Below are positions 1-4,008 of a DNA stretch of 64,000 nt, piece by piece. The position numbers were made by a program, and so were the translations under genes. The notes beneath the pieces are model-generated. The model did not search any database and was not told where the DNA came from. It saw only the letters and a program-made list of their open reading frames with translations. Each line of letters opens with the position of its first letter. Positions within the stretch are counted from its first letter, which is position 1. The DNA comes from an uncultured Spirochaetota bacterium (GTDB lineage Bacteria > Spirochaetota > Spirochaetia > SZUA-6 > Fen-1364): positions 576,001 to 640,000 of the forward strand of contig CAWAHW010000002.1 of NCBI GenBank assembly GCA_963781885.1, given 5' to 3'.

Positions 1-505
1 CTTCTTCGCGCGGCTGCGGCGCTGGGTGCGCGGTACGATATTCGGCACGCATCCCGTCATGGGTGTGGTGAGCCTCCTCTTCCACCTCCTCCTGGTGCTT
101 CTGCCCCTTCTTCTTCCGGCGCACAACATCCTCTTCGCGCTGACCTTCCGCGTGAGCCTGCCCACGCTCCCCGAGCCCTTCATGGACAAGGCCACACTCG
201 GGCTTCTGGCGATCGGTGTCTTCTTCCTGGCGCGCCGCATCTTCTCCCCCCGGATACGGGCGCTCAGCACCCTACGCGACTACCTCGTGCTCCTGCTCGT
301 TGCCGCCCCGTTCGTCACCGCATACATGGCCTACCACCATTGGCTGGACTACCGCACGGTGCTCGTGACGCACATGATCGTCGGTGAAATACTCATTGCG
401 CTGATCCCCTTCACGAAGCTCGGGCACATGCCCTTCCTGATCTTCGCCCGGTTTTTCGTGTCCGGCGAATACTCCTGGAGACCGGGGAAGCGGAGGTGGA
501 GATGA
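1..505 (+). CDS. NarI/TmcC/HmcE/DsrM-type membrane cytochrome b subunit (5'-truncated by window)
   Basis: Frame is open from the window edge. Several TM helices carry candidate heme-ligating His (LFHLL, LPAHN, VTHMI) and the C-terminal PFTKLGHM motif typical of the nitrate reductase gamma family. Confidence 0.85.
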   Translation, partial: FFARLRRWVRGTIFGTHPVMGVVSLLFHLLLVLLPLLLPAHNILFALTFRVSLPTLPEPFMDKATLGLLAIGVFFLARRIFSPRIRALSTLRDYLVLLLVAAPFVTAYMAYHHWLDYRTVLVTHMIVGEILIALIPFTKLGHMPFLIFARFFVSGEYSWRPGKRRWR

Positions 506-894
506 GCGGACATTCCGTGGACGCGAAGACACTCCAGAGGATCTCCCGGGTCGTGGAGGGGAAGAAGGACATGATCCGCCTCTCGCTCCAGGCCTGCGTC
601 CACTGCTCGCTGTGCGCGGAGAGCTGCTTCCTGTACCGCCAGAGCGGCGGGGACCCGACGTACACGCCGGCGTACAAGGCCATCAACACGATCGGAAAGA
701 TCGCAAAAAGCAGGGGCAGGCTTTCGGACGATGCCTACGAGCGGATCCGCGAGCTTGCCTGGGACAAATGCGTTCTCTGCATGCGCTGCTACTGCCCCAT
801 CGGCATCAGCGTTCCCTCCCTCATCGCCGCGGCGCGCAGCGCCTGTCGAGAGAAAGGGGTGCACCGCTGGTACACGACAAGGAGGAACGCATGA
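502..894 (+). CDS. 2x[4Fe-4S] dicluster protein (HdrC/TmcB/DsrK N-terminal-like, no CCG domain)
   Basis: CVHCSLCAESC and CVLCMRCYCPIG motifs; ATGA overlap with the upstream stop; GGAGG RBS. Confidence 0.85.
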   Translation: MSGHSVDAKTLQRISRVVEGKKDMIRLSLQACVHCSLCAESCFLYRQSGGDPTYTPAYKAINTIGKIAKSRGRLSDDAYERIRELAWDKCVLCMRCYCPIGISVPSLIAAARSACREKGVHRWYTTRRNA

Positions 895-1295
895 AGGGAA
901 GAAGGGCGTTTTTCGTGCTTCTCGCATTCGCACTCGGAACGTGCGCGCCGGCGATCTTTGCGGACCCCCCCGCCGTTCTCATGCTCGCAAAGGCGAAGGT
1001 CTTCGGCTCGCTCAGCAGGCCCGCGGTGCGCTTTACGCACGGCGCCCACGGCACCATCCAGGGGGTGAGCTGCCTCACGTGCCATCACGTGTACAAGGAC
1101 GGGAAAAACGTCCTCGACCTCGCCCAGCTCACGGTCGGCAATCCCGCGATACGCTGCGAGACGTGCCACGCGAGCCCGCGCGACCTTGAATCGTCCTTTC
1201 ACAAGTTGTGCATCACCTGCCACGACACCGCGAAGGCGCAGGGCAAGGTGACCGGTCCGCGCGACTGCGGCGACTGTCACGCGTGGGACAGGTGA
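891..1295 (+). CDS. Periplasmic tetraheme cytochrome c3 (class III, TmcA-like)
   Basis: Signal peptide (MKGRRAFF...AIFA), four CxxCH motifs (CLTCH, CETCH, CITCH, CGDCH), FTHGAH and FH distal-ligand His, GPxxCxxCH terminus. AGGAGG RBS and ATGA overlap. Confidence 0.9.
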   Translation: MKGRRAFFVLLAFALGTCAPAIFADPPAVLMLAKAKVFGSLSRPAVRFTHGAHGTIQGVSCLTCHHVYKDGKNVLDLAQLTVGNPAIRCETCHASPRDLESSFHKLCITCHDTAKAQGKVTGPRDCGDCHAWDR

Positions 1296-1307
1296 GCAGG
1301 GGGGAAT

Positions 1308-1992
1308 ATGGTCAAAGCGAAACCAAAACCGCTCGGTGAGATATTCGACAGGGTGAAGGGCTACCGGCGCGTCCTGATCGTCGGCTGCGGCGGATGCACC
1401 TCGGTCTGCCTTGCCGGGGGACAGCGCGAGTCGCTCGCCCTCGCCGACGAGCTTTCTGCCTGTGCGCGCGCGGCGCGCGTGCCCCAGCAGTACGCGACGT
1501 TCGTCACCGAAAGGCAGTGCAACGCCGAGTTCGTCGACGAGATCGGGGAGCGGGCCGCCAACTGCGACTGCCTGATCTCCCTGGCGTGCGGGGCCGGTGC
1601 GGGGCTCCTGGCGGACGCGTTCCCTTCGCTTCCGATGTTCCCCGGCCTGGACACGATGTTCGTCGGCGTGGACCGCGACGTGGGCTTCTACGAGGAGCGC
1701 TGCAGGACCTGCGGCACCTGCGTCCTGGGCGACACGGGAGGGATATGCCCGGTCACGCGCTGCTCCAAGGGCGTCCTGAACGGGCCTTGCGGCGGCACAC
1801 GGGAGGACGGCTCCTGCGAGCTTGCCGACGGCATCCGCTGCGCCTGGCACGATATATATGACAGGCTGAAAGCGCAGGGGCGTCTTTCCCAGATGCTCAT
1901 CGTGCGGCCTCCCATGGAGTGGGTCGACCGGGGTGTGCGGACCCTCATCCAGAAGGGCTACGAAGGCGCGGTACGCCGCCAGAACGGGCTGA
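1308..1992 (+). CDS. metV: MetV, Fe-S/Zn subunit of methylene-THF reductase (MTHFR C-terminal domain family); probable +1 indel near 1960-1975
   Basis: KPLxEI...VGCGGCxxxC, ERQC, SLACG, ERCRTCGTC, CPVTRCSKGVLNGPCGG, CAW. The annotated frame runs on to 2450, but removing one base gives ...YAARTG-TGA(1990-1992) just before the metF RBS. Confidence 0.85.
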
Positions 1993-2004
1993 GGGGGATG
2001 CCCA

Positions 2005-2931
2005 ATGAAGTCGGGCAGCAATCTGGAAAAGGTGCTTTCGGCAGGGCATTTCGCCGTGACGGCGGAGCTCGGCCCGCCGCCGGGCGCCGACGTGGATTTC
2101 GTCGCCAAGAAGGCGGAGCTGCTGCGCGGCGCCGTCGACGCGGTGAATGTCACCGACAACCAGACCGCCGTGGTCCGCATGTCCAGCCTCGCGGTGTCGG
2201 CGCTGCTGGTCGGGATGGGCATCGAGCCGGTCATGCAGATGGTGTGCCGCGACAGAAACCGCATCGCCATGCAGAGCGATGTCTTCGGCGCCTCGGCGCT
2301 GGGCATCCGCAACCTCACCTGTCTCATGGGGGACCACCAGGCCTTCGGCAACCAGACCGGCGCAAAGAAGGTGTACGACGTCGACTCCGTCCAGTTGATC
2401 TCCATCGTGAAGCGCATGCGCGACGAGCGGAAGATCCTGGGCAGCGATGAAGAGATCCTCGGCAGCGTGCCGATGTTCATCGGCTGTGCGGCCAATCCCT
2501 TTGCCAAGCCGTACGAGTTCCGCGCCCTGCGTCTTGCGAAAAAGGTGGAGGCGGGCGCGGACTACGTGCAGACGCAGTGCGTCTACGACGTGAAGATGTT
2601 CGCCGAATGGATGAAGGCGGTCCGCGACCTCGGCGTCCACACGAAGTGCCGCATCCTGGCGGGGGTGACGCCCCTGAAGTCGGCCGGCATGGCGCGCTAC
2701 ATGGCCGAGCAGGTCCCCGGCATCATCATCCCGCCCGAGATCATCGCGCGCTTGGCCGCGGCCCCCAAGGGCAAGGGCGCCGAGGTGGGGCTCGCCATTT
2801 GCGCCGAGATCATCGAGCAGCTGCGCGCCATCGAGGGCGTGGCCGGCATCCATATCATGGCAATCGAGTGGGAGCAGAAGGTCCGCGAGATCGTCCAGAC
2901 GGCCACGCTGCTTCCGCGGCCCGTCGTGTGA
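2005..2931 (+). CDS. metF: Methylenetetrahydrofolate reductase, flavin subunit
   Basis: TAELGPP, NVTDNQ, CRDRNRIA, LMGDH, ANPF, KKVEAGADYVQTQ, GIHIM motifs. Confidence 0.93.
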   Translation: MKSGSNLEKVLSAGHFAVTAELGPPPGADVDFVAKKAELLRGAVDAVNVTDNQTAVVRMSSLAVSALLVGMGIEPVMQMVCRDRNRIAMQSDVFGASALGIRNLTCLMGDHQAFGNQTGAKKVYDVDSVQLISIVKRMRDERKILGSDEEILGSVPMFIGCAANPFAKPYEFRALRLAKKVEAGADYVQTQCVYDVKMFAEWMKAVRDLGVHTKCRILAGVTPLKSAGMARYMAEQVPGIIIPPEIIARLAAAPKGKGAEVGLAICAEIIEQLRAIEGVAGIHIMAIEWEQKVREIVQTATLLPRPVV

Positions 2932-3042
2932 GCCATCACCGCGAAGGACGGTTCCCCGACGGCGTCGCGCCCGGGGCCCCGCCCCTCATCGGCGCAGTGC
3001 CCGCCCTTCCGCGCGCGCGGCTTTCATGGTAGCGTGGACTCC

Positions 3043-4008
3043 ATGGACGGGGCAGACGCGCGCGGCAACGACAGGCTGGAGCCGGACGACCTGCAGGAAA
3101 TCGTCGTCGCGTGCGACAGGGACGGGATCATCCTGTCCTGGAACCGGGCGGGCGAGGAGATCACCGGTTTCCTGCACGACGACGTCATCGGCTATCACCT
3201 TGATGCCGTCATAGCCCCAGAGTCGCGCCAGTTCCTCGACCAGATCCTCACGGTGGAGAGGAGCGGATCGCTGCTTCCCGGTCTCCCCGTGCGCCTGCAG
3301 ACGAGCTTCGGCTGGGTGGTGCCGGCGGAGGTGACATCGGTGCCCCGGCGCGGCGCCGACGGCTGGCTGCTCATCTTCCGCGATACGACGCTGAAGGTGC
3401 AGCTCCAGGAGCATCTCGACCGCCTGGACGTGCTCTACCGCGGTCTGGTGGAGGATTCACCCGACATCATCTACGTGCTCGATGAGCGCGCGCGCGTGCT
3501 TTTCATCAACGACACGGTGGAAAAGCTCCTCGGCTATTCAAAAAGGGAGATCATCGGCAATGATCTCATCGAGCTCGTCCATCCCGACGATCGCCAGCAG
3601 GCGTACTGGCCCCTGCGGGAAAGACGCCACGCGGACCGCGCGACGCGCAACCTCCGCCTGCGCTTCCTCACCCGCGCGGGACGGCAGCGGCGCTATGACC
3701 TTGATTTCATCTACATCTCCCTGACGGCGGTCGGCCTGGGGTCGAACAGGCTGGGGGCGCAGCCGCGCGGCGAGCCGGGCGGCGCGCTGGGAACCCAGGG
3801 CGTGGCGCGCGACGTCACGGATCTCGTCATGCTGAACGAGTTTTCGCGACAGGCGGAGCTCATCCTGCCTGTCTGTTCGATCTGCCACAGGATCCGCGTG
3901 ACGTCGGGCAGCACCGTGGAATGGCTGCCGCTTTCCGACTACCTGACGCGCAGGACGGGTGTACTTTTTTCCCACACCTACTGCCCCGACCACGTACCCG
4001 CGCAATAG
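3043..4008 (+). CDS. Tandem PAS-PAS sensor protein with C-terminal Cys/His (putative metal-binding) domain
   Basis: PAS motifs (SWNRAGEEITGF; FINDTVEKLLGY...VHPDD); C-terminal LPVCSICHRIR...FSHTYCPDH; no kinase or GGDEF domain. Start may instead be GTG 3034. Confidence 0.8.
   Translation: MDGADARGNDRLEPDDLQEIVVACDRDGIILSWNRAGEEITGFLHDDVIGYHLDAVIAPESRQFLDQILTVERSGSLLPGLPVRLQTSFGWVVPAEVTSVPRRGADGWLLIFRDTTLKVQLQEHLDRLDVLYRGLVEDSPDIIYVLDERARVLFINDTVEKLLGYSKREIIGNDLIELVHPDDRQQAYWPLRERRHADRATRNLRLRFLTRAGRQRRYDLDFIYISLTAVGLGSNRLGAQPRGEPGGALGTQGVARDVTDLVMLNEFSRQAELILPVCSICHRIRVTSGSTVEWLPLSDYLTRRTGVLFSHTYCPDHVPAQ

What the first reader, a model, noticed from the sequence alone, without database searches (positions are those of the whole stretch)
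1..2931. Cytochrome b / Fe-S / cytochrome c3 module in one operon with metV-metF: a candidate membrane-linked methylene-THF reductase
Seen: a NarI-type cytochrome b, a 2x[4Fe-4S] protein and an exported tetraheme cytochrome c3 are joined by ATGA overlaps. metV follows after 12 bp and metF after about 12 bp, with no visible promoter or terminator between them. Known: described MetVF complexes act alone or with the soluble partners RnfC2 or HdrCBA-MvhD, and Tmc/Hmc complexes move electrons between periplasmic cytochrome c3 and the cytoplasm in sulfate reducers. Inference: electrons could pass from the periplasm or quinone pool through cytochrome b and the Fe-S protein to MetV and MetF. That would tie the exergonic methylene-THF reduction, or its reverse in methyl/acetate oxidation, to the membrane in a likely spirochaete. 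I know of no characterised MTHFR with these partners. The operon's 5' part lies outside the window.
Basis: partly seen in the sequence, partly recalled or inferred. Interest (0 to 1): 0.8.

Follow-up and report, generated by a model that had tools for sequence, protein, structure and literature searches.

The report
Membrane cytochrome module wired to MetVF
An uncultured peat or sediment spirochaete encodes, in one operon, a methylene-tetrahydrofolate reductase together with a membrane cytochrome b, a small iron-sulfur protein and periplasmic cytochromes c3, a conserved arrangement that looks like the long-sought membrane-bound form of this enzyme.

Summary
The genes are real. The operon is complete at five genes: a signal peptide + tetrahaem c3 domain fused to a NarI-like cytochrome b; a 130-aa 2x[4Fe-4S] protein; a free tetrahaem c3; MetV; MetF. 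A divergent MFS transporter lies upstream, with no hdr/mvh genes.

Two corrections. The first gene is a c3-cytochrome b fusion. metV has no in-frame stop before metF, because of an apparent 1-nt insertion near 1962-1969.

The linkage is conserved. Of 79 loci with a homologous cytochrome b, 57 have MetV within 3 kb downstream (Spirochaetota, Syntrophales/other Thermodesulfobacteriota, Planctomycetota, Myxococcota labels). Many sit inside CODH/ACS clusters or beside Hmc-like genes. The 16 untruncated exceptions form a sister clade; in the one annotated (L068) the Fe-S protein carries a CCG (HdrD-like) domain. MetVF therefore appears to replace the catalytic head of a Tmc/Hmc-type complex.

This genome has no ACS, no recognised menaquinone pathway, no periplasmic hydrogenase or FDH found, a separate housekeeping MTHFR, and no other multihaem cytochromes. 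I read the operon as a membrane-anchored MetVF, here probably oxidising methyl-THF and exporting electrons. Binding and activity are untested. I found no description in nine literature searches.

The parts
1..505 (+). 3' part (167 codons) of gene 1. The gene starts outside the window at G000:C2:575339 (ATG, leader MLRARRVLL...) or 575273. It encodes a signal peptide, a low-complexity linker, a tetrahaem c3 domain (CEQCH, CASCH, CITCH, CNDCH) and a 5-helix NarI-like cytochrome b.
   Evidence: PF02085 at E 6.6e-09 on residues 104-175; the sequence itself. Nitrate_red_gam 22.5 bits against a 22.9 cut-off. H271, H284 and H367 invariant, H355 and H385 at 90% or more, in 20 sequences. AF2 model with transmembrane-domain pLDDT of about 75-87; best matches NarI at Z 9.3 (144 aligned, 22% id) and M. 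smegmatis EtfD membrane domain at Z 9.1; the next unrelated chain scores 7.1.
502..894 (+). Small cytoplasmic 2x[4Fe-4S] protein (130 aa). It is homologous to the N-terminal ferredoxin domain of HdrD-like proteins and has no CCG domain.
   Evidence: Fer4_8 at E 9.9e-10 and Fer4_17 at 9.2e-07, with no CCG match; 8 invariant Cys in 54 sequences (C32, C35, C38, C42, C90, C93, C96, C98); 38% identity, E 2e-27, to residues 17-132 of the 446-aa Fer4+CCG protein of locus L068; the weak best PDB match is HdrC.
891..1295 (+). Exported free tetrahaem cytochrome c3 (134 aa; CLTCH, CETCH, CITCH, CGDCH).
   Evidence: PF02085 at E 1.7e-09; the sequence, a hydrophobic leader MKGRRAFFVLLAFALGTCAPAIFA, and GGAGGA 4 nt upstream of the ATG.
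1308..1992 (+). metV. It reads in frame 0 from 1308 to about 1964, then in the +1 frame from 1969 to the TGA at 1990-1992. As assembled, the frame-0 ORF runs on to 2450.
   Evidence: PF12225 at E 9.6e-33; 13 invariant Cys in 54 sequences; relatives are 223-250 aa and end ...YE(G/A)RY...; the junction alignment shows one extra base in the window.
2005..2931 (+). metF (308 aa), the catalytic flavoprotein subunit of the MTHFR.
   Evidence: PF02219 at E 3.1e-37 over residues 7-299; 81-87% identity to MetF of the nearest spirochaete loci.
3034..4008 (+). Conserved downstream neighbour: a double-PAS protein with a Cys/His-rich C-terminus. It is a possible regulator or sensor. Whether it belongs to the unit is uncertain.
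   Evidence: PAS at E 4.2e-29; found directly after metF at 57-72% identity in 6 spirochaete loci (L003, L005, L006, L007, L009, L013).

Best explanation
The five genes encode a membrane-anchored MetVF-type methylene-tetrahydrofolate reductase. It has the architecture of a Tmc/Hmc/DsrMK-type transmembrane redox complex, with the cytoplasmic CCG (HdrD-like) catalytic domain replaced by MetV-MetF.

Proposed wire (inferred): free periplasmic tetrahaem c3 <-> c3 domain fused to the N-terminus of cytochrome b (periplasmic side) <-> two b haems in a 5-helix NarI-like bundle <-> two [4Fe-4S] clusters of the 130-aa cytoplasmic protein <-> Fe-S clusters of MetV <-> FMN of MetF <-> methylene-THF/methyl-THF.

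Electrons cross the membrane, and protons are bound or released on opposite sides. The reaction is therefore coupled to the membrane potential.

[quoted passage not shown] This genome has no ACS, no periplasmic H2- or formate-oxidising enzyme that I could find, a separate housekeeping MTHFR, and corrinoid, MttB and pterin-type methyltransferases. The likelier direction here is therefore oxidation of methyl-THF (E0' -200 mV), with export of the electrons to the c3 pool and on to an unidentified acceptor. I put that direction at about 0.6, given that the complex is real.

Shown: the gene content, the conserved synteny, the homology relations and the genome inventory. Inferred: complex formation, the electron path, the direction and the acceptor.
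For: (1) The operon is complete and self-contained. A divergent MFS transporter lies upstream, with no hdr/mvh/rnfC. Genes overlap by ATGA or are spaced 12 nt apart.

(2) Synteny. 57 of 79 loci holding a cytochrome b homologue have MetV within 3 kb downstream on the same strand. MetF follows in 29 and lies directly upstream in 27. Of the other 22, 6 have under 2.5 kb of DNA downstream.

(3) Gene order varies: c3 between Fe-S and MetV in 33 loci, a multihaem cytochrome after MetV/MetF in 13, none in 10-11. Yet in 57 of the 57 MetV-bearing loci cytochrome b, Fe-S and MetV lie within 3 kb on one strand.

(4) The Fe-S protein has no catalytic domain of its own. In the sister clade (the 16 untruncated loci without MetV, 14 of them among the 73 tree rows), the one locus annotated (L068) has the homologous protein at 446 aa with a CCG domain. 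In the quick ML tree that clade is one branch (SH-aLRT 100) apart from all MetVF-linked rows.

(5) Context in relatives. CODH-ACS-CFeSP-AcsE lie immediately upstream in L024, L043, L022, L026 and L078. HmcA-like multihaem cytochrome, Fer4_11 and NrfD-like genes lie downstream in L054, L052, L078 and L059, and in part in L022, L026 and L050.

(6) Module-linked MetV of other phyla is 46-55% identical to the window's. A second MetV in the same loci (L034, L037, L038) is only 40-42% identical.

(7) This MetVF is not the housekeeping enzyme. A 614-aa homocysteine-methyltransferase/MTHFR fusion lies next to metE elsewhere.

(8) The only two ORFs in the whole genome with at least 2 CxxCH motifs are the two in this operon. 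A CcsA-type cytochrome c biogenesis gene is present.

(9) Direction. No CdhC was found in G000 (92.55% complete), and only 1 of 18 congeners has it. No FdnG-type FDH over the cut-off and no NiFe small subunit were found in G000 or 6 congeners. G000 has FTHFS, two corrinoid protein + URO-D pairs, a 266-aa pterin-binding methyltransferase beside glyA, and an MttB-family methyltransferase.
Against: - No direct evidence that the proteins bind. The complex prediction could not be run.
- No fused Fe-S-MetV or cytochrome b-Fe-S forms were found (a weak test).
- No expression data exist.
- The cytochrome b assignment rests on a sub-threshold Pfam hit and on a structural Z of 9.3, which the tool's own note calls ambiguous for helical bundles.
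- metV carries an apparent frameshift in this assembly.
- The terminal partner of c3 is unknown.
- In 5 of 5 genomes whose loci lack c3, no class III cytochrome c was found anywhere. In 0 of 16 module-bearing spirochaete genomes was MenB (over the cut-off) or MqnA found. The partner of the cytochrome b in the minimal form is therefore unexplained.
- All 57 loci come from metagenome-assembled genomes, so nothing has been tested in culture.
- The methyltransferase evidence for the direction is circumstantial. Most of the 19 URO-D paralogues that I looked at lie in sugar-acid clusters.
Confidence: 0.7

Rival explanations
1. Quinol-linked enzyme. The essential unit is cytochrome b-Fe-S-MetV-MetF acting as a methyl-THF:quinone (or quinol:methylene-THF) oxidoreductase, like DsrMK, HdrDE or EtfD. 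The c3 proteins are accessory.
For: 8 spirochaete-clade loci with room downstream (L008, L011, L012, L014, L019, L023, L028, L032) have the four genes with no c-type cytochrome. 5 of 5 such genomes tested have no PF02085 protein at all. The nearest structural matches (NarI, EtfD) are quinone-reactive proteins; that property is recalled, while the matches themselves are. G000 has a MenA-like prenyltransferase over the family cut-off (125.2 against 102.15 bits), so salvage of a naphthoquinone head group cannot be excluded. Methyl-THF (-200 mV) to menaquinone (-74 mV) is exergonic; both values are quoted in PMC6895022 and PMC8578096.
Against: No MqnA, no MenB and no MenD over the cut-off in G000. 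MenB over the cut-off or MqnA was found in 0 of 16 module-bearing spirochaete genomes. In this genus a c3 domain is fused directly to the cytochrome b, and these are the genome's only multihaem proteins, which argues that c3 is integral here.
Confidence: 0.12
2. Neighbours only. The cytochrome b/Fe-S/c3 module and MetVF are co-located or co-regulated but work separately. For example, MetVF is ferredoxin-dependent as in type II enzymes, and the module serves another acceptor.
For: Purified MetVF enzymes work with reduced ferredoxin and need no further subunit (passages of PMC9430772 and PMC8760232). No binding evidence was obtained here.
Against: The Fe-S protein lacks any catalytic domain, so the module would have no cytoplasmic substrate site. 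The linkage holds in 57 of 79 loci across several phylum labels, despite rearranged gene order. It is inserted between acsE and metF/metV inside Wood-Ljungdahl clusters.
Confidence: 0.1
3. In this genome the unit is decaying. The metV frameshift is real and the operon is no longer functional, or MetV carries an aberrant 380-aa form.
For: There is no in-frame stop before 2450. The conserved RY motif after YEG is lost in frame 0.
Against: Only the last ~8 residues of a ~227-aa protein (the RYAARTG tail) are affected. All other genes are intact. An upstream UvrD-like helicase is likewise split into two overlapping ORFs, which suggests indel errors in a long-contig assembly. The public contigs laid on the region do not cover 1951-2100, so the point is untested.
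Confidence: 0.08

Closest known systems
Type IV MTHFR: HdrCBA-MvhD-MetVF of Moorella thermoacetica and Sporomusa ovata (passages of PMC9430772 and PMC8578096 read)
   Same: A MetV-MetF core is encoded with extra Fe-S electron-transfer partners from the heterodisulfide-reductase world. In S. ovata it is proposed to link MTHFR to membrane electron transport.
   Different: Here there is no HdrA, HdrB or MvhD. The only Hdr-related piece is an HdrC/HdrD-N-domain-like dicluster protein. A genuine integral-membrane cytochrome b and periplasmic c3 are encoded in the operon. [quoted passage not shown]
Type II MetVF (Clostridium ljungdahlii, Thermoanaerobacter kivui and others; passages of PMC8760232 read)
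   Same: MetF (PF02219) plus MetV (PF12225) with adjacent genes. No NAD(P)H-binding subunit.
   Different: Those enzymes are soluble and ferredoxin-dependent, with no membrane partner genes.
TmcABCD complex of Desulfovibrio (subunit composition recalled, not from a call)
   Same: A periplasmic tetrahaem c3, a NarI-like cytochrome b and a cytoplasmic Fe-S protein, proposed to pass electrons across the membrane. A Tmc-like sister clade was seen here (L068: cytochrome b, Fer4+CCG protein, c3).
   Different: The Fe-S protein here lacks the CCG domains that define TmcB/HdrD. MetVF takes their place. c3 is in part fused to the cytochrome b. No TmcD-like gene was seen.
[quoted passage not shown]
   Same: A cytochrome b plus an HdrD-type Fe-S protein forms the membrane-to-cytoplasm pair. 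In the delta/Planctomycetota-type loci, an HmcA-like multihaem cytochrome, a Fer4_11 protein and an NrfD-like protein follow metF.
   Different: There is no CCG domain and no thiol/disulfide substrate. The window itself has no NrfD-like or Fer4_11 gene.
NarI (E. coli nitrate reductase gamma subunit) and the membrane domain of Mycobacterium smegmatis EtfD (PDB 9ojn)
   Same: These are the best structural matches of the transmembrane domain: Z 9.3 over the whole of NarI (1-213) and Z 9.1 over EtfD 2-241. Both share a five-helix topology and conserved His in helices 2 and 5.
   Different: Sequence identity is 10-22%. The Pfam score is just under the cut-off. Neither protein carries a fused c3 domain. 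Their cytoplasmic partners differ (NarGH; the fused Fe-S/CCG part of EtfD).

Membership tests
MetVF-type MTHFR core (types II-IV) | MetF with an MTHFR (PF02219) domain | tested here: met
   E 3.1e-37, residues 7-299 of 308.
MetVF-type MTHFR core (types II-IV) | MetV with the PF12225 Cys-rich domain, encoded next to metF | tested here: met
   E 9.6e-33; 13 invariant Cys in 54 sequences. metV lies directly before metF. The C-terminal 7 residues are reached only across an apparent frameshift.
MetVF-type MTHFR core (types II-IV) | Methylene-THF reduction / methyl-THF oxidation activity with FMN | not testable with these tools
   Needs an enzyme assay.
Type IV MTHFR (HdrCBA-MvhD-MetVF) | hdrA, hdrB and mvhD encoded with metVF | tested here: not met
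   no such domains in the 15 kb upstream; none downstream in the window.
Type III MTHFR (RnfC2-MetVF) | rnfC2 next to metVF | tested here: not met
   no RnfC-like protein in the operon or its flanks.
Tmc complex (TmcABCD) | Periplasmic tetrahaem class III cytochrome c | tested here: met
   two PF02085 domains, each with 4 CxxCH, each behind a leader peptide.
Tmc complex (TmcABCD) | NarI-family dihaem cytochrome b | tested here: inconclusive
   22.5 bits against a 22.9 cut-off. NarI at Z 9.3, which the tool calls ambiguous for helical bundles; conserved His residues.
Tmc complex (TmcABCD) | Cytoplasmic HdrD-like subunit with CCG domains (TmcB) | tested here: not met
   only Fer4 families are matched; the protein aligns to residues 17-132 of a 446-aa Fer4+CCG homologue and ends there.
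Hmc complex | Large multihaem HmcA, a periplasmic Fe-S HmcB and an NrfD-like HmcC | tested here: not met
   Absent from the window and from the genome: only two ORFs have at least 2 CxxCH motifs. Present beside metVF in some relatives.
DsrMK / HdrDE-type quinol-oxidising pairs | A quinone (or phenazine) pool as the partner of the cytochrome b | tested here: inconclusive
   No MqnA, MenB or MenD over the cut-off. A MenA-like gene over the cut-off. The chemistry was not tested.

The most novel reading that the evidence does not exclude
This is a fifth type of methylene-THF reductase: a respiratory, membrane-integral enzyme in which MetVF is the cytoplasmic head of a Tmc/Hmc-like cytochrome b/c complex. 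The methylene-/methyl-THF couple would then be a direct chemiosmotic coupling site. That would make it the membrane-bound MTHFR sought since the 1980s-90s. It has spread as a unit between Spirochaetota, Syntrophales, Planctomycetota and Myxococcota. In ACS-free peat and sediment spirochaetes it would support a respiration-like oxidation of methyl groups (from betaines or methoxylated compounds), with electrons exported through c3 to extracellular acceptors such as humic quinones.
Probability: 0.4. Interest if true: 0.9.

Novelty: new variant of a known kind. Interest (0 to 1): 0.8.

Why it matters
Reduction of methylene-THF is the only clearly exergonic step of the Wood-Ljungdahl pathway, and its reverse is the hard step in methyl and acetate oxidation. 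The review PMC8578096 (passages read) recounts that the enzyme was long sought as a membrane-bound, energy-conserving one. It was always found soluble, and genomes gave no evidence for membrane localisation. The S. ovata work (PMC9430772) still leaves the membrane partner as a question mark.

A conserved operon that physically encodes a cytochrome b, an Fe-S connector and periplasmic cytochromes with metVF gives that question a concrete, testable candidate. It also points to the organisms in which to look: uncultured peat, fen and sediment spirochaetes, Syntrophales and Planctomycetota. Finally, it suggests how ACS-free anaerobes could dispose of the -200 mV electrons from methyl-group oxidation.

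Tried and rejected
- **Complex prediction (MetV alignment A3 + Fe-S alignment A2).** No result.
- **Expression.** No RNA holder was listed.
- **Public DNA contigs (X1, X2) laid on window 1-3000.** Short pieces only, with none over 1951-2100, so the frameshift stays untested.
- **Promoter/terminator scan.** 0 promoter-like sites against 0.2 expected, so it is uninformative.
- **Sequence searches of PDB.** The Fe-S protein, MetV and their profiles gave nothing below E 1e-3 of relevance.
- **Search for longer (fused) relatives of the Fe-S protein.** One unrelated 583-aa hit.
- **SAM-riboswitch-like match at 1973-2068.** It scores 26.3 bits against a gathering score of 44.4. Its 3' half is metF coding sequence, and its 5' half is not conserved in 16 relatives. 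I treat it as chance.
- **URO-D paralogues.** 19 were found. The four that I annotated near the operon lie among sugar-acid and other catabolic genes, not next to corrinoid proteins, so the count is not used as evidence for methylotrophy.
- **Crude Tat-motif scan.** 27 candidates; the two that looked like exported soluble proteins are a sugar-binding protein and a WD40 protein.
- **Careful ML tree.** It did not finish, so the quick tree is reported.
- **Housekeeping methionine-synthesis role.** Rejected because of the separate MTHFR fusion beside metE.


Full report
**What is in the sequence**

The window is G000:C2:576001-640000. On the + strand, searches show five features:
- An ORF that runs off the window start and ends at 505. 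Pfam Nitrate_red_gam scores 22.5 bits, just under the 22.9 cut-off.
- A 130-aa Fer4_8/Fer4_17 protein at 502-894.
- A 134-aa class III cytochrome c at 891-1295, with a leader peptide and four CxxCH motifs.
- metV from 1308 (PF12225, E 9.6e-33).
- metF at 2005-2931 (PF02219, E 3.1e-37).

First, fetching 15 kb upstream shows that gene 1 is 388-410 aa long. It has a signal peptide, a Ser/Ala/Thr-rich linker, a second tetrahaem c3 domain (PF02085, E 6.6e-09; CEQCH, CASCH, CITCH, CNDCH) and then the membrane domain. Upstream of it is a divergently transcribed MFS transporter whose start lies about 100-170 nt away. The operon is therefore complete at five genes, with no hdr, mvh or rnfC genes.

Second, the metV frame as assembled has no stop until 2450 (380 aa). 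Relatives' MetV proteins are 223-250 aa and end '...YE(G/A)RY' plus a short tail, mostly with an ATGA overlap onto metF. In the window the text after YEG makes sense only in the +1 frame (RYAARTG, stop at 1990-1992). The junction alignment shows one extra base relative to L007. An upstream UvrD-like helicase is also split into two overlapping ORFs. I therefore suspect assembly indels, but I could not test this. The public contigs that hold the region stop at 1950.

**The membrane protein**

Twenty homologues share invariant H271, H284 and H367 and nearly invariant H355 and H385, placed in predicted helices 2, 4 and 5. Arg-rich loops fall on alternate sides, consistent with an N-out, C-in five-helix topology (my reading).

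An AlphaFold2 model has mean pLDDT 66.9, with about 75-87 in the membrane domain. Its best matches are:
- E. coli NarI: Foldseek probability 0.99 but E 0.05; VIA Z 9.3, 144 aligned, 22% identity, covering NarI 1-213.
- The membrane domain of M. smegmatis EtfD: Z 9.1, 169 aligned.

The next, unrelated, chain scores Z 7.1. The tool warns that Z below about 13 is ambiguous for helical bundles, so I call the family assignment likely but not proven.

**Conservation**

A protein search found 121 relatives besides the window's own protein. About 40 carry the c3 fusion, and the rest are cytochrome b alone. The few that carry names are labelled Spirochaetia, Spirochaetota or Rectinemataceae MAGs.

Scanning one genome per prokaryotic species with an alignment gave 84 confirmed stretches and 79 distinct loci. 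tblastn with the five window proteins gave these counts:
- 57 of 79 loci have MetV, starting at query residue 5 or lower, within 3 kb downstream of the cytochrome b on the same strand.
- Of those 57, MetF at 50% identity or more follows in 29, lies immediately upstream in 27, and is cut off by a contig end in 1.
- Of the 22 loci without MetV, 6 have under 2.5 kb of DNA downstream. The 16 with room are labelled Desulfobacterales-, Desulfacinum- or Desulfosoma-type, or 'Deltaproteobacteria'.
- A c3 gene lies between the Fe-S gene and metV in 33 loci (my script missed L005).
- A cytochrome lies after metV/metF in 13 loci.
- No cytochrome c hit is seen in 10-11 loci. Eight of these have ample room, and all eight fall in the spirochaete clade.

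The record titles of the 57 name Spirochaetota, Thermodesulfobacteriota/Syntrophaceae/Syntrophales, 'delta proteobacterium', Planctomycetaceae/Thermoguttaceae, Myxococcota and one Thermodesulfovibrionia. All are MAGs, so the labels may be imprecise.

Within the window's own genus, 15 of 18 other species have the cytochrome b, against 0 of 12 genomes from other families of the order. In an even sample of the phylum, 30 of 401 genomes have it, G000 included.

**What the relatives' neighbourhoods say (76 ORFs from 9 loci)**

- Syntrophales-type loci (L024, L043): CODH, ACS (CdhC), CFeSP (CdhD), AcsE-like pterin methyltransferase, MetF, cytochrome b, Fe-S, c3, MetV, a 97-aa ORF (seen in L024), a divergent second MetF, a PAS histidine kinase and HdrB-like (CCG) genes; an HdrC-like gene precedes them in L043.
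- 'Delta'/Planctomycetota-type loci (L022, L026, L078, L054, L052): CODH/ACS/CFeSP/AcsE upstream in three of them. Then cytochrome b, Fe-S, MetV, MetF and a 575-656-aa cytochrome with 3-4 class III domains. A Fer4_11 protein and an NrfD-like protein follow, which together form an Hmc-like set (its composition is recalled).
- Myxococcota-labelled loci (L050, L059): MetF, cytochrome b, Fe-S, MetV, a multihaem cytochrome, (Fer4_11) and NrfD-like.

The module therefore sits inside Wood-Ljungdahl clusters exactly where the MTHFR belongs.

**Relation to Tmc/Hmc-type complexes**

In Desulfacinum infernum (L068), which has no MetVF, the cytochrome b is followed by a 446-aa Fer4_8 + CCG protein, a Usp protein and a c3. 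The window's Fe-S protein aligns to residues 17-132 of that protein (38% identity, E 2e-27) and ends where the CCG part begins. Its eight cluster cysteines are invariant in 54 sequences.

I built a quick ML tree of the cytochrome b domain with 73 rows. Seven rows were dropped as partial or interrupted: L005, L046, L058, L063, L071, L077 and L078. The careful search did not finish. In this tree the 14 no-MetV rows, plus one truncated locus, form a single clade (SH-aLRT 100). All MetVF-linked rows lie outside it, in a spirochaete clade (20 rows, support 100), a Syntrophales clade (23), an Hmc-type clade (10, support 96) and a Myxococcota-labelled group (5). The tree is unrooted. The data fit one exchange between a CCG head and a MetVF head, but they do not give its direction.

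**Genome context of this organism (G000: 4.64 Mb, 7 contigs, 92.55% complete, 2.12% contamination)**

| Feature | Result |
|---|---|
| CdhC/ACS | Not found in G000; 1 of 18 congeners has it, and that one lacks the cytochrome b |
| FTHFS | Present |
| Second MTHFR | A 614-aa homocysteine S-methyltransferase/MTHFR fusion next to metE |
| Cytochrome c biogenesis | A CcsA-type gene is present |
| Multihaem cytochromes | Among 4213 coding-like ORFs, only the two in this operon have at least 2 CxxCH motifs |
| Menaquinone pathway | No MqnA, no MenB, MenD below the cut-off |
| MenA-like prenyltransferase | Passes its cut-off |
| [FeFe] hydrogenases | Present; 579-591-aa frames, which I read (from memory) as the cytoplasmic type |
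| NiFe small subunit | None found in G000 or in 6 congeners |
| FdnG-type FDH | None over the cut-off in G000 or in 6 congeners |
| Corrinoid protein + URO-D-family methyltransferase pairs | Two |
| 266-aa pterin-binding methyltransferase | Beside glyA |
| MttB-family methyltransferase | One in G000; 15 of 18 congeners have at least one |

In the phylum sample, I took the 14 genomes with strong cytochrome b matches (E < 1e-30). Six have a full-length CdhC match; in G243 and G208 it lies about 3 kb from the cytochrome b. Eight have none. The module therefore occurs both with and without ACS.

**Mechanism**

Gene content, topology and homology suggest an electron wire:
- periplasmic c3 (free and fused);
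- two b haems;
- two [4Fe-4S] clusters;
- the MetV clusters;
- MetF flavin;
- the methylene-/methyl-THF couple (E0' -200 mV, quoted in PMC9430772 and PMC6895022).

Because electrons cross the membrane, inward flow (a periplasmic donor reducing methylene-THF) would build membrane potential. Outward flow (methyl-THF oxidation) would be pulled by the membrane potential.

For ACS-bearing relatives either direction is possible. For this genome the reductive direction lacks both a visible periplasmic donor and a sink for methyl-THF. The oxidative direction has plausible methyl-THF sources and solves the known problem that -200 mV electrons cannot reduce NAD+ or protons unaided. I therefore favour methyl-THF oxidation with electron export. 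The acceptor beyond c3 is unknown; humic or other extracellular acceptors are speculation.

**An unexplained point**

The c3-less form of the module occurs in genomes in which I found no class III cytochrome c (0 of 5). I also found no MenB over the cut-off and no MqnA in them (0 of 16 module-bearing spirochaete genomes). What the cytochrome b talks to there is open. It could be a salvaged quinone or another carrier, or the genes could be missed in incomplete MAGs.

**Literature**

I ran nine full-text searches and read passages of nine papers. None describes metVF with a cytochrome b, this Fe-S protein or c3/Hmc genes.
- The accepted classification has four types: MetF; MetVF; RnfC2-MetVF; HdrCBA-MvhD-MetVF (passages of PMC8760232 and PMC9430772).
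- PMC8578096 (passages) recounts the failed search for a membrane-bound MTHFR. It also recounts the 1993 cytochrome-b-mutant result that motivated it.
- PMC9430772 and PMC6895022 (abstracts and passages) argue for membrane or quinone linkage through Hdr/Mvh-like proteins that have no transmembrane helices.

The library lacks most subscription journals, and I saw no supplements, so a prior description elsewhere cannot be excluded. Sources annotate the Fe-S protein only as 'Fe-S oxidoreductase' or '(Fe-S)-binding protein'. They annotate the membrane protein as 'nitrate reductase gamma subunit' or hypothetical.

**Verdict**

The interpretation survived the two of its own refuters that could be tested (a separate metVF transcript could not be). 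The system is best described as a new variant: a MetVF-type MTHFR with a Tmc/Hmc-like membrane module in place of soluble partners. What is missing is any direct evidence of binding, expression or activity.

Noticed in passing
window 1962-1992 (metV 3' end): An apparent 1-nt insertion shifts metV out of frame 7 codons before its expected stop. As assembled, the ORF runs to 2450 and overlaps metF by 446 nt.
   Followed up: partly
L002 3296-6440, minus strand (G000:C2:564296-567440): A UvrD-like helicase is split into two overlapping ORFs of 546 and 594 aa. This is a second candidate indel, which suggests assembly errors typical of long-read MAGs.
   Followed up: no
window 1973-2068 (+): A sub-threshold match to the SAM-I riboswitch model (26.3 bits against a gathering score of 44.4) across the metV/metF junction. 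The 5' half is not conserved in 16 relatives and the 3' half is metF coding sequence, so it is probably chance.
   Followed up: yes
window 3034-4008 (+) and L002 11632-14172 (-): A double-PAS protein with a Cys/His-rich tail follows metF in 6 close spirochaete loci. Two MFS transporters lie divergently upstream in 9. This extended neighbourhood is conserved, and the transported substrate is unknown.
   Followed up: partly
whole genome G000: Only two ORFs in 4.64 Mb carry two or more CxxCH motifs, and both are in this operon. The cytochrome c biogenesis gene at C2:1518-2111 would therefore serve essentially these two proteins.
   Followed up: partly
G000, 19 places (e.g. C2:510150, 534174, 535345, 544849): There are nineteen URO-D-family paralogues. 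Those annotated near the operon sit among sugar-acid and other catabolic genes rather than next to corrinoid proteins, and their function is unclear.
   Followed up: partly
L015 5800-7383, L016, L017 (Rectinemataceae-type loci): An extra gene directly upstream of the cytochrome b encodes a distant MetF (27-28% identity) fused to, or followed by, a MetV C-domain-like segment. In L015 this is a 527-aa ORF.
   Followed up: no
L024 9280-10592 and 13534-14490; L043 9699-10661 and 13147-14558: Syntrophales-type clusters add a 97-aa ORF (seen in L024), a divergent second MetF (34-39% identical to the window's), a PAS histidine kinase and HdrB-like (CCG) genes (plus an HdrC-like gene in L043) downstream.
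   Followed up: no
G401:C21, G402:C22, G406:C9 (congeners): A 725-739-aa molybdopterin enzyme with weak FDH-alpha similarity lies within about 2 kb of the MttB-family methyltransferase gene. This may be a methyl-oxidation gene pair. It was not seen in G000.
   Followed up: no
Phylum sample, e.g. G310:C1:3514239, G328:C4:154974: Short (about 250-280 aa) open frames with weak CdhC similarity (E 1e-8 to 1e-16) occur in spirochaete genomes that lack a full ACS. Their nature is unknown.
   Followed up: no
genomes of L008, L011, L019, L023, L028: These genomes carry cytochrome b-Fe-S-MetV-MetF with no cytochrome c3 found anywhere in the genome and no recognisable menaquinone pathway. The redox partner of the cytochrome b there is unexplained.
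   Followed up: partly
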